NCBI GenBank assembly: GCA_900545005.1
Contig: UQXO01000002.1
Coordinates: forward strand, 1,901 to 65,900
Length of the DNA: 64,000 nt
Source of the DNA: an uncultured Mycoplasmatota bacterium
GTDB taxonomy: Bacteria; Bacillota_I; Bacilli_A; RF39; UBA660
Direction of reading: 5' to 3'
Below are positions 1,497 to 17,539 of the stretch, piece after piece (the first letter of the stretch is position 1; every line of letters starts with the position of its first letter). Both the position numbers and the translations under genes were made by a program. The notes beneath the pieces are model-generated. The model did no database searches, had not been told where the DNA came from, and saw nothing but the letters and a program-made list of their open reading frames with translations.

Positions 1497-2066
1497 CTAT
1501 ATTTTCCTTTCTAATATCTTAACTAATATTTTACCACAAGTCATAGCATCACTGTAAGCTCTATGTTCTTCTTCATTAATAATACCTAAATACTTAGCTA
1601 TAGCACTTTGACAATGACTATTAATAGGTAATCTATAAGAAACTTTCAAAGTATCTAGATACCTAATATATCCACTATATCCTAGTCTTTCTAAAGTATT
1701 CTTTAGAAAACGAATATCAAATGTAGCATTATGTGCTATTAAGATGATATTACCATTTAATACTTCTTCTAAGAAATTTAGCAACTCAATATAAATATCT
1801 TTTTCTAGAGGAGCATCTTCTAACATTTCTTCACTTATTTTATTAACTTGATAAGCATGATAAGAATTCTTAACATCAGTTTTAACTAAAGAATTAAAAA
1901 TCTTAGTATTTTTACCATCAATAAACTCTACTGCTCCTAGCTCTATTATTCTATCTTTATAAGGACTAAACCCAGTTGTTTCAGTATCAAAGGCTATAAA
2001 CTCAGTATTTAACTTTTTTATAATGTCTTTTGTTAGTTCCACTTCTTCTATTATTACTTCATTCAT
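1497..2066 (-). CDS. DEDDh 3'-5' exonuclease (DnaQ / PolC-exonuclease-like)
   Basis: Motifs FIAFDTETTG (Exo I), LIAHNATFDIRFL (Exo II) and HRAYSDAMTCG (Exo III, H-x4-D). I prefer the internal ATG at 2066 (MNEV...) because AAAGG lies 9 nt upstream; the track ORF runs to 2099 with no SD. Confidence 0.8.
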   Translation of the reverse strand: MNEVIIEEVELTKDIIKKLNTEFIAFDTETTGFSPYKDRIIELGAVEFIDGKNTKIFNSLVKTDVKNSYHAYQVNKISEEMLEDAPLEKDIYIELLNFLEEVLNGNIILIAHNATFDIRFLKNTLERLGYSGYIRYLDTLKVSYRLPINSHCQSAIAKYLGIINEEEHRAYSDAMTCGKILVKILERKI

Positions 2067-2217
2067 AAATAAACCTTTTCTAATTGCTATTATAATCACT
2101 ATAGTAATTTAGTCAAAAAATTATAATTTTCCATAAAAAGGATATACCCAAGATATTATTTCTATGGTACAATTATTGTGCTTTAAGTTTATTAGTTGTA
2201 GTTTTGGGAGTGTTAGT

Positions 2218-2886
2218 ATGAATAGTGAAGCAAATACTTTAGAAAAAGTAAGTCCTATATCAATAAGAAAGACTTTATATTTTGGAATAAAAAGATTATT
2301 TGATATCTTTTGTTCTTTAATAGGATGTATCTTTTTATTACCAATAGCACTTATTGTTAAGATATCTTACTTATTAAGTGGGGATAAAAAGACAATCTTC
2401 TATAAACAAAAAAGAGTTGGTAAAAATGGTAAACCAATATATATTTATAAGTTTAGAAGTATGGTAGTTAATGCTGACGAAGTTCTAAAAGAGTTATTAA
2501 AGAATCCTAAATATAAGAAAGAATGGGATGAGAATCAAAAGTTTGAAGATGATCCTAGAATTACAAAGATGGGTAAAATCCTTAGAAAAACTTCTTTAGA
2601 TGAAATGCCACAGTTTATTAATGTTTTAAAGGGTGATTTAAGTCTAATTGGGCCTAGACCTTTAGTTGAAGGTGAGCTTGATGCTCATAATGGTAATCAT
2701 GAAATATATGAAGCTGTTAAACCTGGTATTACTGGTTGGTGGGCTGCTAATGGTAGATCTGCTACTACTTATAAGAAAAGATTAGAACTTGAATATTATT
2801 ATGTTAAAAATTGTAGTATTCTTCTAGATATTAAATGTATATTTAGAACTGTTAAAGCGGTAGTGTTTAAAACGGGAGCTAAATAG
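2218..2886 (+). CDS. small monotopic bacterial sugar transferase (polyprenyl-phosphate sugar-1-phosphate transferase family)
   Basis: One N-terminal hydrophobic helix, then KQKRVGKNGKPIYIYKFRSM, DPRITKMGKILRKTSLDEMPQFINVLKGDLSLIGPRP. The start at 2218 (MNSE) is preceded by GGGAG at 7-nt spacing. Confidence 0.85.
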   Translation: MNSEANTLEKVSPISIRKTLYFGIKRLFDIFCSLIGCIFLLPIALIVKISYLLSGDKKTIFYKQKRVGKNGKPIYIYKFRSMVVNADEVLKELLKNPKYKKEWDENQKFEDDPRITKMGKILRKTSLDEMPQFINVLKGDLSLIGPRPLVEGELDAHNGNHEIYEAVKPGITGWWAANGRSATTYKKRLELEYYYVKNCSILLDIKCIFRTVKAVVFKTGAK

Positions 2887-2892
2887 AAAATA
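2875..2892 (+). repeat. 18-nt direct repeat copy 1 (GGAGCTAAATAGAAAATA), spanning the sugar transferase stop codon
   Basis: Identical 18-mer recurs at 6069-6086. Confidence 0.8.
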
Positions 2893-2925
2893 ACGCAAAT
2901 GTTTAATGACTTGCGTTATTTTTCT
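2888..2925. terminator. bidirectional rho-independent terminator between convergent genes
   Basis: AAATAACGCAA / TTGCGTTATTT stem with a 12-nt loop; A-run on the left and T-run on the right. Confidence 0.7.
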
Positions 2926-2927
2926 TA

Positions 2928-3857
2928 TCAATCTAACTCTGATAAAATCATATACTCTTTCATTTTTAAGTACTTATTAATTTCCTCAGTTAAATTTTTT
3001 ATTAACATTGGAATATCATTGTTATATTTTTCTAAACTTTCATTTAACTTTTTATAGTCATCCTGTAAGGTTTCTTTTGATATTATATTTTTTCTATTTT
3101 CTATTAAATCATTTTTATATTTTCCCATTAATTCATTAACTAATCTCTGATCAGGCATATCTTGTAGCCTTTCTAATTCAACATCTATTTGATTATTAAT
3201 CTGCAGACAATTACTATTATTTAATAGCTTATAGATATATTCACGATACTTTATAATTATTTCTAAATTTAGTTGTTCTAATTTGTTAATCAAATTATTA
3301 ATGTTTTCTTTGATTGTAACATAGTCGTCATATAATTTAATATTTTTGGTAGGAATATTGTTATTTAATTCTTTTAAATCACTAAAAATATATAACTTAT
3401 CTCTATAACCTAAAATATCATTATTTGTTTTATCTAATTCAAATAATGCATCATTGTATTGTTTAGCATTAGTCATTAATTGAACTTTTCTAAAAATATC
3501 ATCTGTTCTAAATGAATTTAATAACGCTATAACTATACCTTTTAAGACATTTAATTCATCAATTTTCTTTTGATAATTATTATTTTTCTTATTTTCTTCG
3601 TGTTGAGTTCTAATTTGCTCTCTTGTCATTTTTCCGGAGTAAATAATTGCTGCTGTCGCTATTATCGTTTGCAAAATCACTCCCATTAAATTTAACCAAT
3701 TAGATGCACCAATATGTAAAATATTTGGATTAATAGTTCTAATAAAATTGGCTATCAAACTTATTACAGTGGGGAAAAATAAACACAGCAAAGTAATAAC
3801 AATTCCGAAAATTATATTTTTCATTTTCTTTATATCCTCTCTTTTATTTTTTTTCAT
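2928..3857 (-). CDS. membrane-anchored (2 predicted N-terminal TM helices) coiled-coil protein, function unknown
   Basis: IIFGIVITLLCLFFPTVISLIANFI and GVILQTIIATAAIIYSG, then about 220 aa of K/E/N/L-rich heptad-like sequence. Overlaps the upstream AAA+ gene by 14 nt. Confidence 0.6.
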   Translation of the reverse strand: MKKNKREDIKKMKNIIFGIVITLLCLFFPTVISLIANFIRTINPNILHIGASNWLNLMGVILQTIIATAAIIYSGKMTREQIRTQHEENKKNNNYQKKIDELNVLKGIVIALLNSFRTDDIFRKVQLMTNAKQYNDALFELDKTNNDILGYRDKLYIFSDLKELNNNIPTKNIKLYDDYVTIKENINNLINKLEQLNLEIIIKYREYIYKLLNNSNCLQINNQIDVELERLQDMPDQRLVNELMGKYKNDLIENRKNIISKETLQDDYKKLNESLEKYNNDIPMLIKNLTEEINKYLKMKEYMILSELD

Positions 3858-4932
3858 TAATTATGCTTGCTATCCTATTTCTTATAAAATTTTCCGTTTG
3901 TCTAACATTAGAAAGTCTATTGGCATTGGCAATAAAGTATTCTTTTATATTGCTATCTCTAATTAATTTTTTTTCATATTTATCAAGAGTGTCTAAATAC
4001 TTTGAAAAGTACTTATCAATCAACTTTTCTTCTGTCTCTACTGATAATTTTTTATATTCAATAAATCCATTTATTCTGAAAAATATTGGCGCTCCTAGTG
4101 CTTTAAAAATTTCGTCTTGATTTTTATAATTAGATGTACAAACAATCATTGTATTTTTTAAATTTACTGTGTAATTTTTATCTTTAAAAACACCAGTATC
4201 AAACAATTCATAAAGTGCTGAATACATAATTGGGGCACATTTATCAAATTCATCGAATAATATGATATTAGATTTTCGTTCTAATAATTCTTTTGCTAAA
4301 GAATTTTCTTGAATTTTTCCACCATATAGAAAATCAGCATAATGTCCCGACTGAAACATTGAAAATTGATGATAATAAATTTCTTCTCCCAAAAGACTAG
4401 CTAAAAGTTTGCAAGTTTCAGTTTTTCCAACTCCACTAGGACCATAAAGCATTATAACAATTGGTTTTTGTTCTAAATTTAATTTGTTATTAATGTATAA
4501 GAAGTTACTAAATAATTGTAATGCTTCAGCTTGGCCCCAAATCTTTTCAGATGCTTCAGTTTTAAATTTGTTTATAACTTCTAAATCCATTGATTTGTAT
4601 TCAAAATATTTGAAGTGTATTATTTCTTGTGAATAGCGATTTTGTAAGTTTTTAACAATAATATCCGGAGGATTCTGTAAATAAATTTCCTCAATATCTG
4701 CATATTTTATAAAACTTACAAAATCTTGTAGAGTATTATCAGTTACACTAGAATAATCAGATGAATGTACTATTAAAACCGATGATTCATATTGAATATT
4801 TGCCGGATATCTATTTTTTTCTACATCTAAAGCTAATGATAACAATGTGTAATAATCATTTGCTAATATACACTTTTTTGATAGATAATCATCAAAATTT
4901 TTAGTTGGACCATAAAATACTTCTATTCTCAT
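3844..4932 (-). CDS. AAA+ ATPase with ClpA/ClpB-D2-like (AAA_2-type) module and an unknown ~130-aa N-terminal domain
   Basis: IWGQAEALQLF..., PIVIMLYGPSGVGKTETCKLLASLL (Walker A), SNIILFDEFDKC (Walker B), NTMIVCTSNY (sensor 1). The order matches the Clp D2 module. Confidence 0.75.
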   Translation of the reverse strand: MRIEVFYGPTKNFDDYLSKKCILANDYYTLLSLALDVEKNRYPANIQYESSVLIVHSSDYSSVTDNTLQDFVSFIKYADIEEIYLQNPPDIIVKNLQNRYSQEIIHFKYFEYKSMDLEVINKFKTEASEKIWGQAEALQLFSNFLYINNKLNLEQKPIVIMLYGPSGVGKTETCKLLASLLGEEIYYHQFSMFQSGHYADFLYGGKIQENSLAKELLERKSNIILFDEFDKCAPIMYSALYELFDTGVFKDKNYTVNLKNTMIVCTSNYKNQDEIFKALGAPIFFRINGFIEYKKLSVETEEKLIDKYFSKYLDTLDKYEKKLIRDSNIKEYFIANANRLSNVRQTENFIRNRIASIINEKK

Positions 4933-4933
4933 A

Positions 4934-5761
4934 TTACATCCTTAATATACCTGCTAAAATAACATCATAAATTTCTAATTCACCACTTTTATTGCCTTTA
5001 TTATTCATAAAGTCATTTTCATAGCACGGATTTTCAGCGTTATTATTTGACGAATTATTTTTTAATTTTGTCTCTAAATTTAAACATTCTACGTTGCCCG
5101 TTCCAACTTTAATTCCAAAATATGTCAAATTCATATCTAACAAGTCTGTTAGTTTATAGTTGTTTTTTAGACAATTTATATTAAATCTTAATATACATTC
5201 ACGATATTCAGTATTATCTTCAAGTTTTCTTGCTAAAAAACCATAATAACCATTAGTAATAGTTAATACCTCATCTAATTTAAAAATGTCAACATCTTTT
5301 AATTCTTCAATAGTATTTAACATTTCTGAATTTTCAAAAATTTTTAAGTAAGGTAAGTAAGCTTTAAAATATGTTGCTGATTTATCAGGCAGTTCCAATT
5401 TATAATCTCTAAATACTTTTACATCCGTATTTTCATTGCTTAGCTTTATAAATTCAACCATTGTATTTGTCTTGATAGTTGACTTCATGATGCCATTATT
5501 TTTAAAATCGCCTTTAGTTTCTAAATTTAAAGCAGCACCAAAATTCAATAATTTGAATAATGGCGATTTCACTTCTACTTTAGTTTTTAAACTACCATTA
5601 CCTTGAATTGTATTTGCGATTTCTTTTAATTCTTCTGTAGTAATTTCTCCTCCATAATTTAAGACCACATAATCTATCGCTGATTCTTCATCATAATATA
5701 TTATTTTCACTAAATCATTTGAATATTCATTATCTTTATTATTGTTTTCTTCTTTTTTCAT
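4934..5761 (-). CDS. hypothetical protein (275 aa), first gene of the three-gene cassette
   Basis: Complete ORF, with its stop 1 nt before the AAA+ start. I recognise no motif. The central part (SLKTKVEVKSPLFKLLNFGAALNLETKGDFKNNGIMKSTIKTNTM) looks like alternating beta-strand sequence. Confidence 0.6.
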   Translation of the reverse strand: MKKEENNNKDNEYSNDLVKIIYYDEESAIDYVVLNYGGEITTEELKEIANTIQGNGSLKTKVEVKSPLFKLLNFGAALNLETKGDFKNNGIMKSTIKTNTMVEFIKLSNENTDVKVFRDYKLELPDKSATYFKAYLPYLKIFENSEMLNTIEELKDVDIFKLDEVLTITNGYYGFLARKLEDNTEYRECILRFNINCLKNNYKLTDLLDMNLTYFGIKVGTGNVECLNLETKLKNNSSNNNAENPCYENDFMNNKGNKSGELEIYDVILAGILRM

Positions 5762-6068
5762 ACTTTTCTATCACTACTAAAACTCATATGCCTATACTTT
5801 ATCACATTATTAAAAAGATTTGTTAATAATTTACCATAAGTATATCAATTAAAGTATTATAAAACACCACTACACCAAGCGATGTTTAAAACAGGCTTGC
5901 AATAATATTTTTATCATTTTATATCAATTTTTTTCATATTCTGTGCATTTTTTCTCATTAAATTATGAATTTGAGTAATTTACATTCGTATGTTGATCAG
6001 ATTTAGAAGGCTTTAGTAAGTTTGTTAATGCTTGGTGAATATAAAAAGAACATTAAAATTTTTTTATC

Positions 6069-6086
6069 GGAGCTAAATAGAAAATA
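6069..6086 (+). repeat. 18-nt direct repeat copy 2 (GGAGCTAAATAGAAAATA) in non-coding DNA
   Basis: Perfect match to 2875-2892. Confidence 0.8.
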
Positions 6087-6140
6087 TGCCTATTCACGTT
6101 TTTTATTTAGATAATAATTATAATGTAGTGTTTAACATAA

Positions 6141-6166
6141 AAATAAAGAGTTTCTTTATTTTTTGG
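6141..6166. terminator. hairpin plus T-run overlapping the histidine kinase stop codon
   Basis: AAATAAAGAG ttt CTTTATTTTTT; AT-rich stem, so only moderate support. Confidence 0.45.
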
Positions 6167-7160
6167 CAACAGGAAATTTAATATGAAATTCAAAGAAATT
6201 AGTATAATTGTCATTTTTCTTTATTTCACAACCATATTCATAATTAAGTGAAGTTAAAATTTCTTTTACCAAACTTAGTCCAACTCCTGTACCTTTTGAA
6301 ATACAACTTTTTCCTCTATACCCTCTTTCAAAAATTTTTTCCGTTTCATCAACACTTACAGAATTAGTTATATTACTAATGCTCACTTCTGTATATTCCG
6401 AAGTTTCTAAAAAATTAATATTTATGCAATCTTTTGAAATTGAATGTTTTATAGCATTTTCCAAAAGAATAAACATAACAAGATAAACATTATTTGTCAA
6501 AATAAGAATATTATCTTGATTTGGTGAAAGATTAATTTTTATTTTGCGTTTACTTGCCTGATATCTCAATGTTAATTTTAGCTTCATTAATTGTGGATAT
6601 ATTTTTGAATATATTCTGCGATTATTTGCTGGCATAGGGCCATCTAGAACGTTTAATCTGTAATTTATTAAATCGTATAATGAAGTTATGGCTTTAAGAT
6701 TATCGTCATTTTCCATTAAGTCATGATAACGAGCATCTATTGACTCAGTCATACTATTAAAGTATGAACCTATATTTCTTAGATCGTGTATACAATCTCT
6801 AAACTCAATATTGTTCATAATTAGTTGTTCAATGTCGGTAATTAAACTTATAATTTGAGTTCTTGTATAGATGTCAAAATCTTTTATTTTTTGAGATTGA
6901 CTTTCAATATTTTTTCTAACTTTTTGATCATAATCTTTTGTTATTATACAAGTATAAATTGTATTTCTATTATAAAAAGAATAAAATCCATATGGACATT
7001 TATGAATGCCTTTTAACTGATTTTCGAAAATTTCATCGTAGTACTTTTTACATTTTCTATTTTTGTTTTTAAGACATTCTTTACAAAATTTTGGTATTTT
7101 TTCTTCTGTATCACATAATAACTCGTGTGATGATTTATCATAAATTACTAACGATTTCAT
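6156..7160 (-). CDS. cytoplasmic histidine-kinase-like protein with Cys-rich N-terminal domain
   Basis: No TM segment. N-terminus has C16, CxxC (FCKEC), C37, C55 and C71. H-box-like CIHDLRNIG; N-box LLENAIKHS; G2-like GTGVGLSLVKEI. The DxGxG G1 box is not evident (SNITNS in its place). Confidence 0.7.
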   Translation of the reverse strand: MKSLVIYDKSSHELLCDTEEKIPKFCKECLKNKNRKCKKYYDEIFENQLKGIHKCPYGFYSFYNRNTIYTCIITKDYDQKVRKNIESQSQKIKDFDIYTRTQIISLITDIEQLIMNNIEFRDCIHDLRNIGSYFNSMTESIDARYHDLMENDDNLKAITSLYDLINYRLNVLDGPMPANNRRIYSKIYPQLMKLKLTLRYQASKRKIKINLSPNQDNILILTNNVYLVMFILLENAIKHSISKDCININFLETSEYTEVSISNITNSVSVDETEKIFERGYRGKSCISKGTGVGLSLVKEILTSLNYEYGCEIKKNDNYTNFFEFHIKFPVAKK

Positions 7161-7861
7161 TATTTACTCTCCAAATATAAATTAATTGCTTTAATAATTA
7201 AATTTATTATATCAACTACAGGTTGTAAATTTTCATATTTTTCTAATTCTTTATATAAATTCTTAGTGGTGTTTTCACCTTTCAATATGCTTCTAACATA
7301 GCAGTCTTCTAACACAGCTATACTTGTTATTGAGGCACCATTTTTTAACAAATTATCACGATTTGTTATCCAAAATTTTATAGGATCATTAATTTTTGAA
7401 ATATTTTCATCTATTATTTCAGCCAATTCTATACTTTTTAAGTTTTTTGTTATTATTCCGTCTACACATTCAGAATATCTGCTAATTTCAACGCTTTGAG
7501 GTTTATTGCTAAATATATAAACAATTTTTTCTGGGTAAGTGCTTTTAATAAGTTTAGCTAAGGCAGCACCTTGATATTTTTCACTTAAATTTGTTGCTAT
7601 GCCATTTATATCGCAAAATATAAAATCATAGGGTTCTATATCTGATATTTTAACAAACTTTTCCATTATCGTTATATCTAAATATCCAATACTCTTCAAA
7701 CCATTTTCATCGAATCCCTCATCATCGATAAATAATAGTCTTATATTTTTCTTATCTTTTATTGAGACGTTGTTTAACTTTACTTGAGATTTTTTTAAGT
7801 CTTCTATTGTTAAGAACTTCTTCATTACTTTAGATCTAAATAACATTTCTAAACATTCCAT
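7160..7861 (-). CDS. receiver (REC) domain protein with unknown ~100-aa C-terminal helical domain
   Basis: LLFIDDEG (acidic pocket), FIFCDINGI (phospho-Asp position), VYIFSNKP (S/T and K). No recognisable DNA-binding output domain. TAATG stop/start overlap with the kinase gene. Confidence 0.65.
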   Translation of the reverse strand: MECLEMLFRSKVMKKFLTIEDLKKSQVKLNNVSIKDKKNIRLLFIDDEGFDENGLKSIGYLDITIMEKFVKISDIEPYDFIFCDINGIATNLSEKYQGAALAKLIKSTYPEKIVYIFSNKPQSVEISRYSECVDGIITKNLKSIELAEIIDENISKINDPIKFWITNRDNLLKNGASITSIAVLEDCYVRSILKGENTTKNLYKELEKYENLQPVVDIINLIIKAINLYLESK

Positions 7862-7877
7862 AATAATTTCATCCCCC

Positions 7878-9176
7878 CTATATAAAATTATCTATATATT
7901 CTACTAAATATAAAGGAATATTAATAATCTTCCCGTCTTTCTTTAAGTTATTAAGAGATAGTCTTATAGAAATTTCATTATTATTTTCTTTATTAAACCT
8001 AGTTAAACTATTGTTATTGGTACTATTCCCTGCTTTTACTTCAATAGGAATAACATTGTTCTTATACTGAATCACAAAATCTATTTCATTTCTATCAAAT
8101 GTATAATAATGTAAATCAGTATTAAATTTATTGCTTAGCATACTACATACGAAATTTTCTGTAAATGAGCCTTTAAACTCTTCAAATAAACGATCACCTT
8201 CAATTATGATATTACTATCTAAATCAGTCATTCTTCTAAGCAAGCCAACATCTAAAAGATATATTTTAAACGCTGATAAATCGTTATATGATGTCAATGG
8301 AAAAGCACATTTATTCAAGTTATAACATTTATAGACTAAATTAGCATCATTAAGCCAATTGAGAGCGCCTTCATATTCTCTTGCCCGAGCCCCTTCTTTA
8401 ATCGTCTGATAAACAAACTTCTTATTATCCTTGGCTAGTTGTGACGGAATGCCATCCCAGACGATAGCAACTTTAATTGCTTCATTGGCCGTTAAATGTT
8501 TAGAAAAATCATCTTTATAGGCTAATAAAATATTTTTTTGTAAATAATTTACTCTCTCAATATCTTTATCATTAACCCAACTATTAACGACTTCTGGCAT
8601 TCCACCGATAATATAATATTTCTTTAGTTGTTCAATTAATTGTTCTTCAAATATTTTAGGTATTTCCTTAATCTCCTTTAAAGATTTCATATATTCTACT
8701 AAATTTTCTTTACCGTCTGCTAACAAAAATTCACTAAAAGTCATCGGATATAAAGTTAAATAATCTATTTTACCAACAGGAAAAGAGGTATGAGACAATT
8801 TTATTCCCAATAAAGAACCCGCTGCTACTATATGATACTCTGGAGTTTCTTCCTCAAAATATTTTAAAGAATTTAAAGCATTTGGGCATTCTTGAACTTC
8901 ATCAAATATTATTAAAGTAGCTCCTGGTTTTATTTTCTTACCAACAACAAATGATAACTGTTCAATTATTCTCTTAGGATCTTTAGTATTTAAGAATAGT
9001 TCTCTTAAAGCTTCATCATGATCAAAGTTAAAATAAGCCATATCTTCATAATAATCTCTAGCAAATTCTTTTAGAAGATAAGTCTTTCCTACCTGTCTTG
9101 CTCCTCTTAAAATCAAAGGCTTACGATACTTACTATCTCTCCATTCTATCAATTTATTCATTAATAATCTTTTCAA
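7878..9176 (-). CDS. AAA ATPase (AAA_14-like) with DUF4143-type C-terminal PD-(D/E)xK-like region
   Basis: LILRGARQVGKTYLLKEF (Walker A), LIIFDEVQ (Walker B), C-terminal NEIDFVIQYKNNVIPIEVKAG. The stop lies 16 nt before the REC gene start. Confidence 0.8.
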   Translation of the reverse strand: MKRLLMNKLIEWRDSKYRKPLILRGARQVGKTYLLKEFARDYYEDMAYFNFDHDEALRELFLNTKDPKRIIEQLSFVVGKKIKPGATLIIFDEVQECPNALNSLKYFEEETPEYHIVAAGSLLGIKLSHTSFPVGKIDYLTLYPMTFSEFLLADGKENLVEYMKSLKEIKEIPKIFEEQLIEQLKKYYIIGGMPEVVNSWVNDKDIERVNYLQKNILLAYKDDFSKHLTANEAIKVAIVWDGIPSQLAKDNKKFVYQTIKEGARAREYEGALNWLNDANLVYKCYNLNKCAFPLTSYNDLSAFKIYLLDVGLLRRMTDLDSNIIIEGDRLFEEFKGSFTENFVCSMLSNKFNTDLHYYTFDRNEIDFVIQYKNNVIPIEVKAGNSTNNNSLTRFNKENNNEISIRLSLNNLKKDGKIINIPLYLVEYIDNFI

Positions 9177-9336: not shown

Positions 9337-10827
9337 TTATAATTTATAAACTTTAGGAAATTCTTCTGCTTCTTTTAAAAGATTCATCTTCATATTAATA
9401 CCTAGATTAATTCTAATAGCCCCTAGAATTCCATCATAGACAATACAACCTTTGAAAGGAATTAAACTAGTTTCTACTGGATAAGGTAAATCTTTATAAT
9501 CAATTATTTCATCAATTGGACACCTTAATCCTTTAACCATATAAATAGTATTATTATTACTAAACAAAGTATATTCTAAGTCATATTTATATATAAAGAA
9601 ATTACCTCTAATAGTTCTTTTAAAGTCTTTTAAATATTCTAATTCTACTTTACTAAATTTATAAGGATTTTCTTTAACTACTCTATCTACTATTGTCTCT
9701 TTATTTTCAAAGAACTTATTAATAACAGGATATAAGTCAGCAGGATTTAAATACTTACTCTTATATATTTTAAGAGTCTCATTAATCTTATATTCTTGAT
9801 TAGTATATTCTAAAAGAGCAAAATATAATTTATAAAATAAATCACAGTCTTTAGGATGTAAGCTAGCATTTACTTGCTTTTGGTAAGTGTAATCCCTTTC
9901 TTCTTCAAACTTATTATGTTTTAAGATATCTTTAGCATATTCTTCTTTAGTTAATAATTGATATTTACTAGAAGGCATTTTATCCATTACTTCATCTAAT
10001 TTAGCTGTACTAAGGCCAAAGCTATTAAGTAGTTCTTTAAGACTACTTCTATCATCATCAAATAAAACATAATGAGTAACAAATTCTTGTAAAATTGGTG
10101 ATTTTAATTTCTCCATAAAAGTATTAACCTCTTTATTTTTCTTATCATAGCCATAATAGAAAACGTTAATAAACATTTCATCATCAATAACTTTGATACC
10201 CATTTTCTTAGTTTCATATAACGAAATTAATTCATCAGTAAAATCCATATAAGAATGATATACTAACAAATAATCATAGGCTTTATGATAAGTAATAAAA
10301 GTATAATATTTAAATAATAGACTATCTAACAATAATTTATTATATTCTTCACTGGATATCTCATAAATACTACTAAAAATCATAACCATGTTATCATAAC
10401 GTTCAAGTCCTAATAGTCTCATAGCGCCAAGAAGTGGGATAATTAAGTCTTCTTCATGTTGTTTAGCTTTTAAATCTAACTTAGTTATTGCTTCTTTAAT
10501 ACTGTTTTCTAAACCATCCATAAGAGTTACTTCATCACTAGTTAATTTAATTAATAATTTAGATGATAAATTACTAAGGATAAAGTCTTGTAGTTCATTA
10601 ATATTTTGGATCTTTATTTTCTTTTTGGCTACTAGTTCCTTTAAAAATGTTAATTCTTTTAAGGTGCAAATACTAATGATATTATGATAATCTTCATACT
10701 CGCTTTCAATTACTTCAAGCATTTTATTTCTTGTTATCTTATCATAGTTCTTAATCCTAACGTTAAGGACTCGATAAATGTCATAAATATCTTCCTTCGT
10801 AAATTTTTTTAAATATTCTTTATTCAT
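9337..10827 (-). CDS. hypothetical protein (496 aa)
   Basis: Long complete ORF with no recognised motif. Confidence 0.6.
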   Translation of the reverse strand: MNKEYLKKFTKEDIYDIYRVLNVRIKNYDKITRNKMLEVIESEYEDYHNIISICTLKELTFLKELVAKKKIKIQNINELQDFILSNLSSKLLIKLTSDEVTLMDGLENSIKEAITKLDLKAKQHEEDLIIPLLGAMRLLGLERYDNMVMIFSSIYEISSEEYNKLLLDSLLFKYYTFITYHKAYDYLLVYHSYMDFTDELISLYETKKMGIKVIDDEMFINVFYYGYDKKNKEVNTFMEKLKSPILQEFVTHYVLFDDDRSSLKELLNSFGLSTAKLDEVMDKMPSSKYQLLTKEEYAKDILKHNKFEEERDYTYQKQVNASLHPKDCDLFYKLYFALLEYTNQEYKINETLKIYKSKYLNPADLYPVINKFFENKETIVDRVVKENPYKFSKVELEYLKDFKRTIRGNFFIYKYDLEYTLFSNNNTIYMVKGLRCPIDEIIDYKDLPYPVETSLIPFKGCIVYDGILGAIRINLGINMKMNLLKEAEEFPKVYKL

Positions 10828-11001: not shown

Positions 11002-11544
11002 CTAATCTTGTTTTAAGACTAGTCTTCTCTTTACTCTTGGTAGTTCTTGTTTGATAATTTCATCATAAGTCGTAGCTTTTTCTAAATAACAAGTTTCTCC
11101 ACTTAAAGAATAATTACCATCTTTAACATAGAAAGCAGGTATAATAGTATATTTATGATAGCCACTTTCTTCATAGTAGTTATAATCATCAAAATAGGGA
11201 TTTACTTGATAAGCTAGAGTAATACCTTTATAATTATAAAGTGCTATATATTCATTATAACCATTAAATCTCGTATATTTATAGTCTTTATCACCATCTA
11301 TATCAATGATAGGTTTAGTTCTTTGAAATTGATATCCTAATGGTATAGATTCTTTTAAATAATCTTCTAGACTAATAAAGTCTTTGGTTAATTCTTCTTC
11401 ATTAGAATAAATTCTTTTCGTATCAAGACAAGTTAGTTCTAAAGATGAACCACTTCTTAGATGCCAAAAGTCATTAGTATGCTCTAAGGATATAGATTTA
11501 TTTATAATATCAATATCTCTTTTTATATATAAGTTACTTTTCAT
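11002..11544 (-). CDS. hypothetical protein (about 180 aa)
   Basis: The ORF's internal ATG at 11544 (MKSNLY) is preceded by GGGGGA at 5-nt spacing. No recognised motif. Confidence 0.55.
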   Translation of the reverse strand: MKSNLYIKRDIDIINKSISLEHTNDFWHLRSGSSLELTCLDTKRIYSNEEELTKDFISLEDYLKESIPLGYQFQRTKPIIDIDGDKDYKYTRFNGYNEYIALYNYKGITLAYQVNPYFDDYNYYEESGYHKYTIIPAFYVKDGNYSLSGETCYLEKATTYDEIIKQELPRVKRRLVLKQD

Positions 11545-11596
11545 AAGTTCCCCCAGACACAATATTCACTATACTATAAAATTCTTCTTTTGACAA

Positions 11597-12104: not shown

Positions 12105-12998
12105 TTAATTCCACAAGTTATTTGGATATTCTCCCGCTTTTACTAATTCTTTTAGGGAATCTCTAACTAACTTAGCATCTTCTTTATAAGTTACCCCATA
12201 CCAAACACTAGAAGTATTTAAGACTTTAACCGTAATATCTTTCTTGTTTAAATGTTTAGTAATAACATCTGGTATTAAGAATTCTCCCTCTAACAAGTTA
12301 TCTTCATGGTTCTTAAAGTATTCTAAGATATCTTGATCTAAAATATTAAAAATATCTTTGGTAAATAAGAACATATTCATTGATACTAAGGTATCAGTAG
12401 TAACGGTAAATGATGGGGCCCCATCTAGAGGACTAGCCGTAATAATACCATCAACACTTTCTACTTTAGACTCAACTAGGTTGGTTAGTAAACCATTTAG
12501 AGAGGTACAAACGCCTCTTTTAACAGAGCCATTACTAGTTAAGGTATTTTTTACTTGATACCCAACCATGCCAAAGTTATGACCATTTGCTCCATTTTTT
12601 AAGAACTCAGCGGCTTTTTGATAAGCATCAGCGCCATAAAAATCATCGGCATTGATAATGGCAAAATTTTCTTTGACAACATCACGACAGCAATAGATTG
12701 CATGGGCTGTTCCCCAAGGTTTAATGCGATTGCTACCTAGATATTTTGGAGGAATATTATCCATATCCTGGTAGACATATGAAACCTCAATTTTACCTTC
12801 TACTCTTTTGCCAATAGTTTCTTTAAAAACTTCAGCATTTTCTCTTTTAATAATAAAGATTACTTTTGAAAAACCAGCTTTAATAGCATCATAGATTGAA
12901 TAATCGATGATGAATTCACCATTTGGTCCCATTGGTTCAATTTGTTTTAAACCACCGAATCTTGAACCCATTCCGGCAGCCATAATTACTAATTCCAT
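12105..12998 (-). CDS. sugar-phosphate nucleotidyltransferase family protein
   Basis: N-terminal MAAGMGSRFGGLKQ (GxGxRxxxxK) and NADDFYG. The start lies 1 nt after the pcrA stop. Confidence 0.75.
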   Translation of the reverse strand: MELVIMAAGMGSRFGGLKQIEPMGPNGEFIIDYSIYDAIKAGFSKVIFIIKRENAEVFKETIGKRVEGKIEVSYVYQDMDNIPPKYLGSNRIKPWGTAHAIYCCRDVVKENFAIINADDFYGADAYQKAAEFLKNGANGHNFGMVGYQVKNTLTSNGSVKRGVCTSLNGLLTNLVESKVESVDGIITASPLDGAPSFTVTTDTLVSMNMFLFTKDIFNILDQDILEYFKNHEDNLLEGEFLIPDVITKHLNKKDITVKVLNTSSVWYGVTYKEDAKLVRDSLKELVKAGEYPNNLWN

Positions 12999-12999
12999 A

Positions 13000-15108
13000 T
13001 TAATTTACCTTTCTAATCCCCTTAAAACTCTTTCTAACCTTTTTTACTCCGAATCTGGCACTAAAAGCAATAGTATAATAAGTATCATCGAGAGCAACAA
13101 TAATTCCTCGTCCGAAGAGGCTATGCATTAGATGATCTCCTACTTTTAAAGGCACAGTATCTGATGTATTATAAAATACACTCTTATCGTGATGCATACC
13201 ATTATGAATTTCAGAAGCATAAGTCGGTATCTTTTTTTCAATGTCTAAAAGATTCTTATCAATCTCTCCAATAAATCTGGAAGGAGGATTAACTTGCTCA
13301 CGACCATATAAAATTCTTCTTTTGGCATTTGTTAAGAACAAACGTTTACGGGCTCTGGTAATTCCCACATAACAAAGACGACGTTCCTCTTCAATTTCAG
13401 TCTCACTCCCAAATGCATTTTGATGAGGAAAAATTCCTTCTTCTAAACCACAGATAAAGACACAATCAAACTCTAAGCCTTTAGCACTATGAAGAGTCAT
13501 CAAAGTAACAGCATCTTTTTCTTCTTTATGTTCAGACATATCGGCTACTAAAGATATCTCTTCTAAAAAATCACTTAAGTTTACAGAACCAGTTCTCTCT
13601 TCAAAGGAAGCAGTCACTGACTTAAACTCTTCTAAGTTATCCAAACGAAGATCATTTTCTAAAGACTTTTCACTTTCTAAAGATGCCCGCATCCCACTTT
13701 TATCAATAACATAATCCACAAATTCTGTTAAAGACAATTCTTCCTGAGCCTTAATCATATCATTAATTAAGTCTTTAAATACTAATTCTTTACCTTTCGT
13801 AATAGATGCAAACATACTGGTATTATTTTCCCTAGCTATAGCACTTAAATTCTCAACAGCCTTCTCCCCAATTCCTCTTTTCGGTTCATTAATTACTCTT
13901 CTAAGGGCAATATCATCATCTTGATTACAAATAAGTTTCAAATAACTTAATAAATCTTTGATTTCTTTTCGTTGATAGAAGTAATAAGCACCGACAACAT
14001 TATAAGGAATATTTTCTTTTAAGAAGACTTCTTCTAATAAACGTGATTGACCATTAGTGCGATAAAGAATCCCAATATCTTTATAATCATACCCCTCATT
14101 ATAAAGCTTCTTAATCTTCTCAATAATAGTTAAAGCTTCATCTTTACCATTTTCACAAACTATATACTGAGTTTTAAGACCATCGCCAATCGTTCCTTTT
14201 AGATTAAGCTCTTTTCGCTCTTTATTATTTCTAATAACACAGTTAGCACATTCTAGGATGTTATTGGTACTACGATAATTATTTTCTAAAGTAACAACTA
14301 AACAGTTTTTATAGTCTTTTTCGAAGTTTAAAATATTTCGGAAATTAGCATTTCTAAAACCATAAATTGATTGATTAGCATCCCCAACAACAAATAGATT
14401 TTGGTATTTATGCGCTAATAGTTTATTAAATTGATACTGAACTTCATTAGTATCTTGATACTCATCAACTAAAATATACTTAAATTTCTCTTGATAATGC
14501 TCGAGAACTTCTTGATGTTCTTTGAAAAGCTTAACTGGTAAGACTAATAAGTCATCAAAATCAACAGAATTATTCTTATGAATTAACTCTTCATAAGTCT
14601 CATAAATATTTAAGACTTGTTGTTCCATAGCCGTATTAAAAAGATTAGTAATTTCTCTTGGACTTAAATTTTCATTTTTAATAAAACTAATTCTATTTCG
14701 AACATAAGAAGGAGCCAGCATCTTGGGATCAATCCCTTTATCCTTCATAATTCTTTTAATAAGACTTAAGACATCATCACTATCTAAGATAGTAAAAGTA
14801 GAAGTTAAGTTACAAAGAGAACAATTTTCTCTTATAATTCTTACTCCTAAGGAATGAAATGTTCCTACAAAAGCCTTATTATCAGGAACCAAAGACTCAA
14901 GACGTTCCTTCATTTCTTTAGCAGCTTTATTAGTAAATGTTATAGCTAAAATATTATAAGAAGGTATTCCTTGGTCAATTAGATAAGCAATTCTGGTGGT
15001 TAAGACTCTTGTTTTCCCCGAACCAGCCCCCGCTAAAACAAGACAAGGTCCTTCTAAATGAGTAACAGCTTTATATTGTTCTTCGTTCAAGTTTTTTAAA
15101 TAATCCAT
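13000..15108 (-). CDS. pcrA: ATP-dependent DNA helicase PcrA (UvrD family)
   Basis: LAGAGSGKTRVLTTRIAYL, ILVDEYQDTN, YRSTNNIL, TLHSAKGLEF, VGITRARKRL. Confidence 0.9.
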   Translation of the reverse strand: MDYLKNLNEEQYKAVTHLEGPCLVLAGAGSGKTRVLTTRIAYLIDQGIPSYNILAITFTNKAAKEMKERLESLVPDNKAFVGTFHSLGVRIIRENCSLCNLTSTFTILDSDDVLSLIKRIMKDKGIDPKMLAPSYVRNRISFIKNENLSPREITNLFNTAMEQQVLNIYETYEELIHKNNSVDFDDLLVLPVKLFKEHQEVLEHYQEKFKYILVDEYQDTNEVQYQFNKLLAHKYQNLFVVGDANQSIYGFRNANFRNILNFEKDYKNCLVVTLENNYRSTNNILECANCVIRNNKERKELNLKGTIGDGLKTQYIVCENGKDEALTIIEKIKKLYNEGYDYKDIGILYRTNGQSRLLEEVFLKENIPYNVVGAYYFYQRKEIKDLLSYLKLICNQDDDIALRRVINEPKRGIGEKAVENLSAIARENNTSMFASITKGKELVFKDLINDMIKAQEELSLTEFVDYVIDKSGMRASLESEKSLENDLRLDNLEEFKSVTASFEERTGSVNLSDFLEEISLVADMSEHKEEKDAVTLMTLHSAKGLEFDCVFICGLEEGIFPHQNAFGSETEIEEERRLCYVGITRARKRLFLTNAKRRILYGREQVNPPSRFIGEIDKNLLDIEKKIPTYASEIHNGMHHDKSVFYNTSDTVPLKVGDHLMHSLFGRGIIVALDDTYYTIAFSARFGVKKVRKSFKGIRKVN

Positions 15109-15469: not shown

Positions 15470-17539
15470 TTAAAGCTCCTTTTCTACTTCTTTAAAGTCT
15501 TCTATTGTCTTATGAGAGTTATAGAATAAACCGGTTAAAATAGTCTTTTCGTCAATAGTATCTAAATGATTAACTAAGGTAATTAGGTTTCTTTTAGTAT
15601 TTTCTACTGAGAAGGCTAAGTTATTAATGATATAGGCTTTTTCTTTAAAAACAGTTAAGCTTTCTAATCTATTTAAGACTTTAGAATATTCATCAAACTT
15701 TTTAGCACCACTTAAGACTTCATCACTAGCCTTATTCTTTAAAGCCTCATATGCTTCTTTAGAGATTTCACTTTCTAATTCATCAGTTAATTTTTTACTA
15801 GGCTTAGGTAGTTCTACTTCTTTTTCGACTAATTCTTCTAGAACACTTTGACTAAAGATATAACTATTATAAGAGAAACTATTATTCTTTTCTTCCGTAT
15901 AAGGGATATTATATTCTTTACAGAAGTTAATTCTTGCGATAACTAAAGGAACATTTTGACTTAAGACTTTAACATTATAAGTTAAGAGATTAGTTTCTCT
16001 GGCTTCAATAATTAAATCGATATTATCTCTTAAAGTCTTAGGTTCTTGACATAGCACTTTAAAGACAATCTTTCCATTAGGATTCTTTAAACTAATTTTA
16101 TATTCTTCTAAGATTTTTAAATTTTCTTCTAGTTTTTCATTATCAACAAGACTTAAAGTAGTCCCAAATTTTTGAAGTTCCATTGCTGTAGGATTATAAC
16201 CTTTATTCTTTAGACTTTTTAAATTCTTAAGATAATTTTCAAGACCATTTTGGTAAGTTACAAGACTTACATCTTGAGGATTTATCTCTTCTTCTTTTAA
16301 AGTATCTAAAATTTCTTTAGGATTTAGATTACTTGTATCAAAGTGGTCTACTAAGTCAATATCTTGAGATTTTTTTTCTAAGGCAATTAATTTATCTTTA
16401 GAAAAATCAATCGCACTAGATGTTTCTTCTTTTTCAAAAGTTATTTCTTCTTTAGGTTCTTCTTCTTTTACTTCCAAAGCTGGTTCTTCTGAAGTTATAG
16501 AATTATTGGTAACCGCATCTAACTCATCTAAAGAAATAGGCTCAATAGCAGGTTCTTCTTCTTTGATTTCAGCTGGAGTATCTTGTTTATCTTCTTCAAA
16601 AAGGCTCTTTAATTCTTCAAAAGATATGGGGGTTTCATCTTCTAGGCGACTTTCAAAAGAAATAATATCATCATTTTCTTTTGGATTTTCCTTTTCTTCT
16701 TTAGTAGTATCTTCAGGAGTTACTGGTTTTCTAACTTCTTTAGCATCTTCTTCTTTTTCTTCTTTAATATTACTAGTAGGTTCTTCATTTAATAAAGATA
16801 CAATCTTATCTAAGTCAACAAAAGTATCATCATCCTTAGAGAAAATATCTTCATTATTTTCTTCTTTTAAAGGTTCTTCCTTAACAGGCTCTTCTACTTT
16901 AATAGTAGGTTTAACAAATTTATAATCCTTAAAGAAAGGAATTAACTCATCTTCAGGGAAAAGAATTAATTTAGCAGTCTTATAAGCATCTTTATCATTA
17001 AATTTAACCTTCTTTAAGATATTAATAACATCATCACGCGTAATTTCTACTTCCCCTTGACTTGAAGCCTCTAATAAATCAATTAATTTACTTTGGTTCT
17101 TTAAAGCTTCTTTTATAGAAATTTCTACTTCTTCAATAGTAGTATTCGCATCATTTAGAGTTTCTTCTTCTTTCTTGATAGCAGTTTCTAAGTCTGTAAT
17201 ATCATTTTCTCTAATAGTAATCTGTAAAGGTAATTGATTAGTTAATTTATCTAAATCTTCTTTAACATTAATTTTTAATTTCAAGACATTAGTAATCAAA
17301 CCTAAGTCAGTATCTTTAAGATGAGAAAAAGCCTCTACTAAAGTTTTATTTTGCGACTCTAGAGCATTGATATCATTCTTAATATGCGTAATTGTCTCAT
17401 TCTTAGCAGCGATATTCCTAGTCGCTTTAGCTACTATATCTTCATTTTTATTCTTCTTATTATGTAATTCTGTAAGAATACTTGATTCTGGTTCGATTAA
17501 ATTTTTTAGTTTTTCTAATATACTTTGGTTATTATTCAT
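15470..17539 (-). CDS. acidic coiled-coil / low-complexity protein (689 aa)
   Basis: N-terminal heptad-like region and a central E/K/P-rich tract (EEPVKEEPLKEE, KEEEPAIEP, VKEEEPKEE). AGGAGAG SD upstream. Confidence 0.6.
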   Translation of the reverse strand: MNNNQSILEKLKNLIEPESSILTELHNKKNKNEDIVAKATRNIAAKNETITHIKNDINALESQNKTLVEAFSHLKDTDLGLITNVLKLKINVKEDLDKLTNQLPLQITIRENDITDLETAIKKEEETLNDANTTIEEVEISIKEALKNQSKLIDLLEASSQGEVEITRDDVINILKKVKFNDKDAYKTAKLILFPEDELIPFFKDYKFVKPTIKVEEPVKEEPLKEENNEDIFSKDDDTFVDLDKIVSLLNEEPTSNIKEEKEEDAKEVRKPVTPEDTTKEEKENPKENDDIISFESRLEDETPISFEELKSLFEEDKQDTPAEIKEEEPAIEPISLDELDAVTNNSITSEEPALEVKEEEPKEEITFEKEETSSAIDFSKDKLIALEKKSQDIDLVDHFDTSNLNPKEILDTLKEEEINPQDVSLVTYQNGLENYLKNLKSLKNKGYNPTAMELQKFGTTLSLVDNEKLEENLKILEEYKISLKNPNGKIVFKVLCQEPKTLRDNIDLIIEARETNLLTYNVKVLSQNVPLVIARINFCKEYNIPYTEEKNNSFSYNSYIFSQSVLEELVEKEVELPKPSKKLTDELESEISKEAYEALKNKASDEVLSGAKKFDEYSKVLNRLESLTVFKEKAYIINNLAFSVENTKRNLITLVNHLDTIDEKTILTGLFYNSHKTIEDFKEVEKEL

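What the first reader, a model, noticed from the sequence alone, without database searches (positions are those of the whole stretch)
2928..5761. Compact three-gene cassette (unknown 275-aa protein, ClpB-D2-like AAA+ ATPase, 2-TM coiled-coil protein): candidate novel defence or abortive-infection module
Seen in sequence: three minus-strand genes separated by 1 nt and by a 14-nt overlap. They sit alone between a bidirectional terminator (2888-2925) and a ~390-bp non-coding stretch, inside a region full of defence-type genes. The ATPase has the Clp D2-type signature (GPSGVGKTE, FDEFDKC, VCTSNY) but no Clp N-domain, no second AAA module and no protease partner. The downstream protein has two TM helices and about 220 aa of coiled coil, an effector- or sensor-like architecture. 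The first protein has no motif I recognise.

Inference: the layout of an ATPase, a membrane protein and an unknown protein resembles many phage-defence operons. I cannot match this combination to a named system.
Basis: partly seen in the sequence, partly recalled or inferred. Interest (0 to 1): 0.8.

Follow-up and report, generated by a model that had tools for sequence, protein, structure and literature searches.

The report
Dodola defence system plus orphan gene
The first two genes are an ordinary copy of Dodola, a published two-gene anti-phage system, and the third is a rare uncharacterised membrane protein that sits next to it only in this lineage, so this is not a new three-gene system.

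Summary
There are three minus-strand ORFs of 275, 362 and 309 aa, with a 1-nt gap, a 14-nt overlap, a terminator hairpin downstream and a 394-nt spacer upstream.

The interpretation as a novel module is not supported. The 275-aa protein is DolA (PADLOC 5.7e-60; Pfam DUF6414). The 362-aa ATPase is DolB (PADLOC 6.6e-108; Clp D2-type AAA+). Together they form Dodola, a two-gene system validated in B. subtilis and S. thermophilus, with unknown mechanism.

The third gene (two TM helices plus a helical domain) belongs to a tiny family: 32 clusters among 5.8 billion proteins, with no Pfam, PADLOC, PDB or fold match. It follows dolB only in this species and one ~75-78% relative.
- It is absent from 80/80 diverse Dodola loci.
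- It is absent from the closest two-gene relatives (53-55%). One of these lies beside a similarly placed, diverged Bac_transf gene.
- Its own homologues (23-44% identity) lie without dolAB among other defence or mobile genes in all five informative loci.
- One sub-lineage carries a frameshifted copy beside intact dolAB.

Verdict: a new member of a known system plus a hitch-hiking orphan gene that is itself a weak candidate for a stand-alone defence or exclusion protein. Interest is low to moderate.

The parts
4934..5761 (-). dolA (275 aa), the DUF6414 protein of the Dodola system
   Evidence: PADLOC DolA E 5.7e-60, residues 15-272 against profile 3-257/258. Pfam DUF6414 at 56.9 bits against a cut-off of 25. 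No sequence relative in the PDB.
3844..4932 (-). dolB (362 aa): a non-Clp N-terminal region of about 120 aa plus a single Clp/Hsp100 D2-type AAA+ module
   Evidence: PADLOC DolB E 6.6e-108, residues 1-360 against profile 2-369/375. Pfam AAA_2. Profile against PDB matches ClpC/ClpB/ClpA D2 at E 5.6e-28 with catalytic motifs aligned. Walker A at 164, Walker B at 224, sensor-1 at 264-269.
2928..3857 (-). Gene 3 (309 aa; possible true start at Met12, ATG at 3824). An orphan-family protein with a 2-TM hairpin and a helical domain of about 230 aa. Probably co-transcribed with dolAB here (inferred, not measured), but not a conserved Dodola component.
   Evidence: No significant Pfam, PADLOC, PHROG or NCBIfam match; only sub-threshold DUF6427 (18.7 bits, cut-off 25) and phrog_21436 (E 0.0064). 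Only 9 clusters among 1.84e9 representatives and 32 among 5.8e9. AlphaFold2 model all-helical, pLDDT 70. Foldseek best E is about 0.1 in PDB and BFVD. Family motifs are listed.
2885..2925 (.). Bidirectional terminator-like hairpin between gene 3 and the convergent Bac_transf gene
   Evidence: Folds at -14.8 and -14.0 kcal/mol, z -5.3 and -4.7. The same hairpin follows dolB directly in the two-gene loci L006-L008.
5762..5902 (-). Upstream regulatory region of dolA. It holds a hairpin at about 5862-5887 and a promoter-like TTAACA-17-TGtGATAAA at about 5826-5798 (my reading only).
   Evidence: Alignable between the window and the two-gene Dodola loci L006/L007. The upstream 125 nt are 73% identical over 111 aligned columns, against 64-66% for the CDS. 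The promoter assignment is my reading and was not listed by the scan.
6069..6086 (+). Upstream copy of an exact 18-nt direct repeat, GGAGCTAAATAGAAAATA
   Evidence: two exact copies in the window, with 0.06 matches expected by chance when up to 2 mismatches are allowed.
2875..2892 (+). Downstream copy of the 18-nt repeat. It covers the last codons and stop of the Bac_transf gene plus 6 nt. With 6069-6086 it brackets the whole cassette at a spacing of 3194 nt.
   Evidence: In other strains (L002-L004) only the upstream copy is exact, because their Bac_transf allele differs.

Best explanation
The cassette is two things placed side by side.

(1) Genes 5761-4934 and 4932-3844 are dolA and dolB, a canonical Dodola anti-phage system. 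What is shown: full-length HMM membership of both proteins, their tight coupling, and an accessory distribution inside a variable island between core genes (UvrD, NTP_transferase) and a polysaccharide locus (Bac_transf).

What is inferred: DolB assembles into a Clp/Hsp100-like hexameric AAA+ ring and uses ATP to unfold or remodel a protein. DolA (DUF6414) is its obligate partner, acting as the sensor or adaptor that selects a phage-derived target, or as an effector that DolB activates. The outcome is a block of phage multiplication. The mechanism of Dodola is unpublished in the literature I could search, so this step is conjecture.

(2) Gene 3857-2928 encodes a member of a very rare, uncharacterised family. 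The proteins have an N-in 2-TM hairpin, a conserved juxtamembrane Q-H-(E/K)-E-N motif and a cytoplasmic helical domain of about 230 aa. The gene is an independent cargo gene of defence islands and small integrative elements. In this lineage it has become attached to the 3' end of the dolAB operon and was probably carried in with it as one ~3.2-kb insertion flanked by an 18-nt direct repeat. I think its most likely role is a stand-alone membrane-acting abortive-infection or superinfection-exclusion protein. That rests only on architecture and on the company it keeps.
For: Dodola identity:
- PADLOC DolA 5.7e-60 and DolB 6.6e-108, both full length. Pfam DUF6414 and AAA_2. Clp D2 alignment.
- Dodola is defined as the two genes dolA and dolB. 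It is active against SPP1 in B. subtilis (PMC11514479) and broadly active in S. thermophilus and L. cremoris (10.1101/2024.10.22.618286).

Gene 3 is not a Dodola component:
- An HMM of the gene-3 family finds 0 hits at E<=1 in all ORFs of 80 diverse Dodola loci. 69 of those loci have DolA by phmmer and 80 have DolB.
- The closest two-gene relatives lack it. In L006-L008 (DolB 55%) dolB is followed by a ~90-nt spacer, then the same terminator hairpin and a Bac_transf gene. L009-L012 (DolB 53%) also lack it.
- Downstream neighbours of dolB elsewhere are heterogeneous, with no recurrent family. They are other defence modules even when overlapping: an AAA_15 ATPase at -4 nt and an N6_N4 methylase at -11 nt.
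- Gene-3 homologues occur without dolAB in all five informative loci. These are L013 (44% identity; AAA_21/Ppl-like plus PIN), L015 (R-M S subunit, PDC-S11, PDC-S10-like, AbiLi), L017 and L107 (directly after a large serine recombinase; PDC-S28 helicase next in L107), and L020 (NucS-like nuclease).
- A sub-lineage on at least 15 contigs has a 1-nt deletion that frameshifts gene 3 after about residue 98. DolA is 274/275 and DolB 361/362 identical to the window.

Accessory status and insertion:
- 90% clusters hold 13-18 members for DolA and DolB against 140-215 for flanking core genes.
- Exact 18-nt direct repeat brackets the cassette.
Against: - Gene 3 is tightly coupled to dolB (14-nt overlap or 19-nt gap, no terminator between). 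The same arrangement is kept in the one relative at about 75-78% identity (L005, 20-nt overlap). A lineage-specific functional recruitment therefore cannot be excluded.
- The frameshifted allele is recent, with only 5 differences in 930 nt. It shows that loss is tolerated, not that the gene is useless. dolB is also split in another strain (P0201/P0202).
- Nothing here tests defence activity of this particular Dodola copy or of gene 3.
- The neighbourhood evidence for gene 3 rests on only five independent loci, most on short contigs.
- The mechanistic roles proposed for DolA and DolB are inference. My DolA model was unusable (pLDDT 31.6).
Confidence: 0.78

Rival explanations
1. A true three-gene Dodola variant. 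In this lineage the 2-TM helical protein has been recruited as a membrane effector or anchor. DolA and DolB sense infection and activate it, or it tethers them to the membrane, giving an abortive-infection output that canonical Dodola lacks.
For: A 14-nt overlap or 19-nt gap with dolB and no intervening terminator. The arrangement is retained at about 75-78% identity in L005. The whole trio lies inside one pair of 18-nt direct repeats with a single upstream promoter region and a single terminator.
Against: Absent from 80/80 diverse Dodola loci and from the nearest two-gene relatives. Homologues occur without dolAB in 5/5 informative loci. Frameshifted beside intact dolAB on at least 15 contigs. 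Two-gene Dodola is sufficient for defence experimentally. Tight packing with unrelated genes is common after dolB.
Confidence: 0.14
2. Gene 3 has nothing to do with phage defence. It would be a lineage-specific membrane protein, for example one linked to the adjacent polysaccharide or cell-envelope locus, or selfish cargo of unknown role, that happens to lie between Dodola and Bac_transf.
For: No homology to any defence, toxin or pore-forming family. It borders a glycosyltransferase/Bac_transf locus. In L017 and L107 it lies near LysM and SecA genes.
Against: In 4 of 6 independent contexts its immediate neighbours are PADLOC-recognised defence or candidate genes: Dodola, Ppl-like AAA_21, PDC-S11/AbiLi and PDC-S28. 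Two of the six lie next to a serine recombinase. It is not linked to Bac_transf in any other locus. It shares strand and transcription unit with dolAB, and Bac_transf is convergent.
Confidence: 0.08

Closest known systems
Dodola (dolA + dolB), Millman et al. 2022 (attribution from my own knowledge and the 2026 review PMC12926258), as described in PMC11514479 and 10.1101/2024.10.22.618286
   Same: The same two protein families (DUF6414 and a ClpB-like single-module AAA+ ATPase), matched full length to the PADLOC models. Same gene order and strand. The same tight coupling seen in 69 other loci, with gaps of -41 to 0 nt. Located in a variable defence island.
   Different: Here a third, unrelated gene is fused to the 3' end of the operon. 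The host is an uncultured, low-GC (about 25-30%) bacterium recovered from human gut metagenomes, not Bacillus or Streptococcus. DolB is at most 55% identical to any homologue outside its own lineage (the ~78% relative in L005 carries the same trio).
Clp/Hsp100 unfoldases (ClpB, ClpC, ClpA, human CLPB/Skd3), D2 module
   Same: Walker A, Walker B, sensor-1, Arg finger and sensor-2 align with D2. The S. thermophilus homologue is predicted to form a hexamer (PMC11514479).
   Different: There is a single AAA+ module. There is no Clp N-domain, no D1, no middle domain and no ClpP-docking partner. The pore-loop region is about 5 residues shorter than the GYVG loop in the HMM alignment. Scores lie far below every NCBIfam Clp equivalog cut-off. 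DolB is therefore not a housekeeping chaperone.
Small membrane-anchored single-gene abortive-infection or superinfection-exclusion proteins of defence islands and prophages (a functional analogy for gene 3 only)
   Same: An N-terminal TM hairpin with a cytoplasmic helical domain. Free-standing gene. Cargo next to recombinases and other defence genes.
   Different: No sequence or fold similarity to any named Abi, Sie, Kiwa, Zorya or CBASS-TM protein in PADLOC, PHROGs, PDB or BFVD. No relative in viral contigs. No functional data.

Membership tests
Dodola | A DolA protein (DUF6414 family) is present | tested here: met
   PADLOC DolA 5.7e-60 with full-length coverage. Pfam DUF6414 at 56.9 bits against a gathering score of 25.
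Dodola | A DolB protein (ClpB-like single AAA+ ATPase) is present | tested here: met
   PADLOC DolB 6.6e-108, residues 1-360 of 362 against profile 2-369/375. Clp D2-type motifs are intact.
Dodola | dolA and dolB are adjacent, on the same strand, in the order dolA then dolB | tested here: met
   1-nt gap, both on the minus strand. The same order and coupling occur in the surveyed loci.
Dodola | A two-gene system with no further obligatory component | tested here: met
   The third gene is absent from 80/80 other loci and from the nearest relatives. The literature defines and validates the system as two genes.
Dodola | Confers resistance to phage | not testable with these tools
   This needs heterologous or native expression with phage challenge. 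Activity is shown only for Bacillus- and Streptococcus-derived homologues.
Housekeeping Clp/Hsp100 chaperone (ClpB, ClpA, ClpC) | Full domain set (N-domain, D1, D2) and a score above the NCBIfam equivalog cut-offs | tested here: not met
   Best NCBIfam scores are 42-62 bits against cut-offs of 885-1417, and only D2 aligns.
   The trio occurs only in this species and one ~75-78% relative. The components occur separately everywhere else.
Alpha-helical pore-forming toxins or gasdermin-like effectors (suggested check for gene 3) | Significant fold or sequence similarity | tested here: not met
   The Foldseek PDB hits to MakA, XaxB, PaxB and ClyA have E 0.1-0.5 and TM 0.12-0.25, no better than F-BAR or spectrin. 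PDB sequence and profile searches give nothing significant. The model is all-helical, so it is not gasdermin-like.

The most novel reading that the evidence does not exclude
The 309-aa protein founds a new, very rare family of membrane-anchored single-gene phage-defence or exclusion proteins. The family has a 2-TM hairpin, a Q-H-(E/K)-E-N juxtamembrane motif and a helical cytoplasmic domain, and it travels as cargo of defence islands and minimal serine-recombinase elements. A less likely version is that it has been captured as a membrane effector that turns Dodola into a three-component abortive-infection system in this lineage.
Probability: 0.3. Interest if true: 0.5.

Novelty: new member of a known kind. 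Interest (0 to 1): 0.25.

Why it matters
The main result is that the finding is largely already explained. PADLOC or DefenseFinder would have labelled two of the three genes as Dodola, a published system, so it should not be pursued as a new defence module.

Some modest value remains.
- Dodola's mechanism is still unknown. This is a diverged copy from an uncultured gut bacterium, with natural two-gene and three-gene alleles in the same island, and it could be useful comparative material.
- The orphan 2-TM helical family keeps consistent defence-island and recombinase company. It is a cheap candidate to test as a stand-alone defence gene.
- The locus illustrates that tight packing, and even overlap, of adjacent genes in defence islands is not evidence that they form one system.

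Tried and rejected
- Genome-contig scan with a single DolB sequence.
- Empty-site search through the exact product of the neighbouring HATPase_c gene. The protein is not on record.
- Fold search of the gene-3 model against PDB and BFVD. Only generic long-helix hits at E of about 0.1 or worse, so pore-forming toxin, F-BAR and similar readings are rejected as unsupported.
- PDB sequence and profile searches for DolA and gene 3. Nothing significant.
- Viral-contig scan for gene-3 relatives. None found.
- DolA structure with a 51-sequence alignment. The single-sequence model had pLDDT 31.6 and was discarded, so I have no independent view of the DolA fold.
- Rfam scan of 2700-6300. No RNA family in the 394-nt spacer.
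- Consensus promoter and terminator scan. Promoter-like sites are no more frequent than in shuffles (27 against 31 expected), and the terminator was missed because of its loop length. The promoter I propose is my own reading.
- Organism identification through cluster member names. No names were returned.
- Housekeeping Clp chaperone for the ATPase was considered and rejected.
- I considered that strong conservation of the dolA upstream region marks a regulatory element. It is only modestly better conserved than the CDS (73% against 64-66%), so I make no claim.
Full report
**1. The observation**

The window holds three consecutive minus-strand ORFs at 5761..4934 (275 aa), 4932..3844 (362 aa) and 3857..2928 (309 aa). 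A 1-nt gap separates the first two, and the last two overlap by 14 nt.

Downstream lies a hairpin at 2885-2925. It folds at -14.8 kcal/mol on the minus strand and -14.0 on the plus strand (z -5.3 and -4.7) and is followed by U-rich runs on both strands. It sits between gene 3 and the convergent Bac_transf gene at 2164-2886.

Upstream of the first gene there are 394 nt with no ORF of 50 aa or more and no Rfam match.

The ATPase carries GPSGVGKTE, ILFDEFDK and VCTSNY at residues 164, 224 and 264.

The third protein has two hydrophobic segments at about 14-40 and 54-75. Its AlphaFold2 model is entirely helical, with mean pLDDT 70 and 80-87 over the C-terminal half.

The description is therefore accurate. 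One refinement concerns the start of gene 3. The 298-299-aa versions in other strains begin at Met12, invariant alignment columns begin there, and a GAGAGG motif lies upstream. The real junction with dolB may be a 19-nt gap and not a 14-nt overlap.

**2. What genes 1 and 2 are**

Against PADLOC-DB, the 275-aa protein matches DolA at 5.7e-60 (residues 15-272 against profile 3-257/258). The 362-aa protein matches DolB at 6.6e-108 (residues 1-360 against 2-369/375). Pfam gives DUF6414 at 56.9 bits (cut-off 25) for the first and AAA_2 for the second.

A profile of 25 DolB homologues aligns to the D2 module of ClpC, ClpB and ClpA at up to 5.6e-28. Walker A, Walker B, sensor-1, the arginine finger and sensor-2 are in register. 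The region matching the GYVG pore loop is about five residues shorter. NCBIfam scores of 42-62 bits are far below the Clp equivalog cut-offs of 885-1417 bits, so this is not a housekeeping chaperone.

Dodola is described in the literature as a two-gene system, dolA (unknown function, DUF6414) and dolB (ClpB-like).
- It is active against phage SPP1 in B. subtilis (PMC11514479; 10.1101/2024.10.26.620412).
- It gives broad protection in S. thermophilus and L. cremoris when expressed at low copy or from the chromosome (10.1101/2024.10.22.618286).
- A 2026 review still lists its mechanism as unknown (PMC12926258).

All sequence-testable membership criteria for Dodola are met.

**3. What gene 3 is**

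Gene 3 has no significant match in PADLOC, Pfam, PHROGs or NCBIfam. The only hits are sub-threshold: DUF6427 at 18.7 bits against a cut-off of 25, and phrog_21436 at E 0.0064. It has no PDB relative by sequence or by profile. It has no significant fold match in PDB or BFVD. The best E is about 0.1 with TM at most 0.33, and the hits are generic long-helix proteins such as F-BAR, spectrin and MakA/XaxB.

An exhaustive phmmer search of 1.84 billion representatives found nine clusters. A profile search of 5.8 billion proteins found 32.

The family is nevertheless real. Full-length homologues at 23-44% identity share these features:
- an FSPTIIS-like motif in TM1;
- NWL before TM2;
- an invariant Q85 and E88 within a juxtamembrane Q-H-(E/K)-E-N motif;
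- invariant R123, Y156 and D160;
- a C-terminal K-x-Y-L-x-L-K.

From the basic N-terminus and the short inter-TM loop I infer an N-in/C-in hairpin with a cytoplasmic helical domain of about 230 aa. This topology is an inference.

**4. Is the trio a unit?**

Within the species the whole block is kept at 96-98% identity, which is uninformative. One relative at about 75-78% identity (L005) keeps dolA, dolB and gene 3 with a 20-nt overlap. Beyond that the association dissolves in both directions.

*Dodola without gene 3.*
- The next closest DolB (55%) is in L006-L008. There dolB is followed by a ~90-nt spacer, then the same terminator hairpin and a Bac_transf gene (about 70% nt identity to the window's). 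This looks like the same chromosomal site with two genes only.
- L009-L012 (53%) share the UvrD/NTP_transferase anchor and a PDC-S01-like gene with the window. They also have only dolAB.
- I fetched 80 further Dodola loci (32-48% identity), called all ORFs and searched them. DolB was found in 80 and DolA in 69. The gene-3 family HMM found nothing at E<=1.
- DolA-DolB gaps are -41 to 0 nt almost everywhere, while what follows dolB is heterogeneous and shows no recurrent family.
- Where a downstream gene is tightly packed or overlapping, it is another defence module. Examples are AAA_15/AAA_21 ATPases at +5 and -4 nt, N6_N4 DNA methylases at -11 and +13 nt, DUF4268 and AAA_13, or a MobA relaxase. 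Overlap with dolB is therefore not evidence of membership.

*Gene 3 without Dodola.* All five informative loci of diverged gene-3 homologues lack dolAB.
- L013 (44% identity): follows an AAA_21/Ppl-like ATPase, a PIN protein and an unknown gene, after a 100-nt gap.
- L015: lies between a type I R-M S subunit with PDC-S11 (DUF4268) on one side and a PDC-S10-like gene with AbiLi on the other.
- L017 and L107: follows a large serine recombinase directly. In L107 a full-length PDC-S28 helicase comes next.
- L020: lies near a NucS-like nuclease.

*Decay.* A sub-lineage seen on at least 15 contigs from different samples has a single-base deletion at nt 291 of gene 3. It frameshifts the protein just after the TM hairpin. 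DolA (274/275) and DolB (361/362) are intact. dolB is also split in another strain, so erosion is not specific to gene 3.

**5. Context**

The cassette lies in a variable island bounded by core genes on one side and a polysaccharide locus on the other. The core side holds RuvB, UvrD at 13000-15108 and NTP_transferase at 12105-12998. The other side starts with Bac_transf.

The island also holds PDC-S01 (7878-9176), a PDC-M43A/B-like pair (7160-7861 and 6156-7160), and, beyond Bac_transf, a DEDDh exonuclease (1497-2099).

The 90% clusters of DolA and DolB have 13-18 members, against 140-215 for the flanking core genes. This is consistent with an accessory element. The rest of the window is not defence-rich.

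An exact 18-nt direct repeat, GGAGCTAAATAGAAAATA, occurs at 2875-2892 (the Bac_transf stop region) and at 6069-6086. The two copies bracket the cassette, and 0.06 matches are expected by chance when up to 2 mismatches are allowed. This suggests that the ~3.2-kb unit, gene 3 included, arrived as one insertion at the 3' end of Bac_transf. In other strains only the upstream copy is exact, because their Bac_transf allele is about 30% diverged. No empty site could be retrieved.

**6. Mechanism**

*Shown.* The two Dodola families are present, intact and coupled. DolB has a complete set of Clp D2-type ATPase motifs.

*Inferred.* DolB forms a hexameric ring, as predicted for the S. thermophilus homologue (PMC11514479; that paper's AlphaFold paragraph appears to swap the DolA and DolB labels). 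It remodels or unfolds a protein substrate with ATP. DolA acts as sensor or adaptor, or as an effector activated by DolB.

For gene 3 the most likely role is an autonomous membrane-acting abortive-infection or exclusion protein. That rests on its architecture and on its repeated association with defence genes and recombinases, which is weak evidence.

**7. Verdict**

The finding is a correct observation of a known system (Dodola) plus a lineage-restricted neighbour. It is not a new three-gene defence module.

I rate novelty as a new member of a known kind and interest at about 0.25. The residual novel reading is that the orphan family is a new single-gene defence or exclusion protein, or a recruited Dodola effector. 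I give it about 0.3 probability and moderate interest if true.

Noticed in passing
window 2875-2892 and 6069-6086: An exact 18-nt direct repeat, GGAGCTAAATAGAAAATA, brackets the whole cassette at a spacing of 3194 nt. One copy is the stop-codon region of the Bac_transf gene. It looks like a target duplication or att-like scar of a ~3.2-kb insertion, yet no integrase lies inside. In strains L002-L004 only the upstream copy is exact.
   Followed up: partly
window 6156-7861 (minus strand): Two overlapping genes (233 aa, then 334 aa with HATPase_c) match the PADLOC candidate pair PDC-M43A and PDC-M43B at 1e-15 and 1e-13. They form an uncharacterised candidate defence pair directly upstream of Dodola and are conserved with it in all strains seen.
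   Followed up: no
window 7878-9176 (minus strand); also L009-L012: An AAA_14 + DUF4143 ATPase matches PDC-S01 at 1.8e-176. A homologue sits immediately upstream of dolA, with a 7-nt gap, in the 53% Dodola relative L009. It may therefore be a recurrent neighbour of Dodola in this group of organisms.
   Followed up: no
window 1497-2886 compared with L002, L003, L104-L106, L006: The far side of Bac_transf is a second variable spot. It carries a DEDDh/RNase_T exonuclease here and in L104, an AAA_13 ATPase plus a 218-aa gene in L002/L003, a 578-aa reverse transcriptase (RVT_1) in L105/L106, and DUF4145 in L006. The Bac_transf allele itself is about 30% diverged in nucleotide sequence between strains whose Dodola cassettes are 97-98% identical.
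   Followed up: partly
L017 and L107: In one clade the gene-3 homologue is the first gene after a large serine recombinase, and a LysM gene flanks both loci. L107 has an extra PDC-S28 helicase between them. This suggests a minimal integrative element whose cargo is this orphan gene, with or without a defence candidate.
   Followed up: partly
window 9337-10827, 11002-11562 and 15470-17539 (minus strand): Three sizeable ORFs (496, 186 and 689 aa) inside or next to the island have no Pfam or PADLOC match at all. The 496-aa and 186-aa genes are conserved with the island in other strains.
   Followed up: no
window 5762-5902 compared with L006/L007: About 140 nt upstream of dolA is alignable between the three-gene and two-gene Dodola alleles, whose proteins are only about 50% identical. 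It includes a hairpin and a TTAACA-17-TGtGATAAA promoter-like element. Conservation is only modestly above that of the CDS: 73% over the upstream 125 nt against 64-66%.
   Followed up: partly
PMC11514479, section on Dodola: The AlphaFold paragraph of that paper attributes the Clp-like hexamer to 'DolA' and the two-domain unknown protein to 'DolB'. This is the reverse of the PADLOC and Pfam naming used elsewhere in the same paper, so the labels were probably swapped.
   Followed up: no
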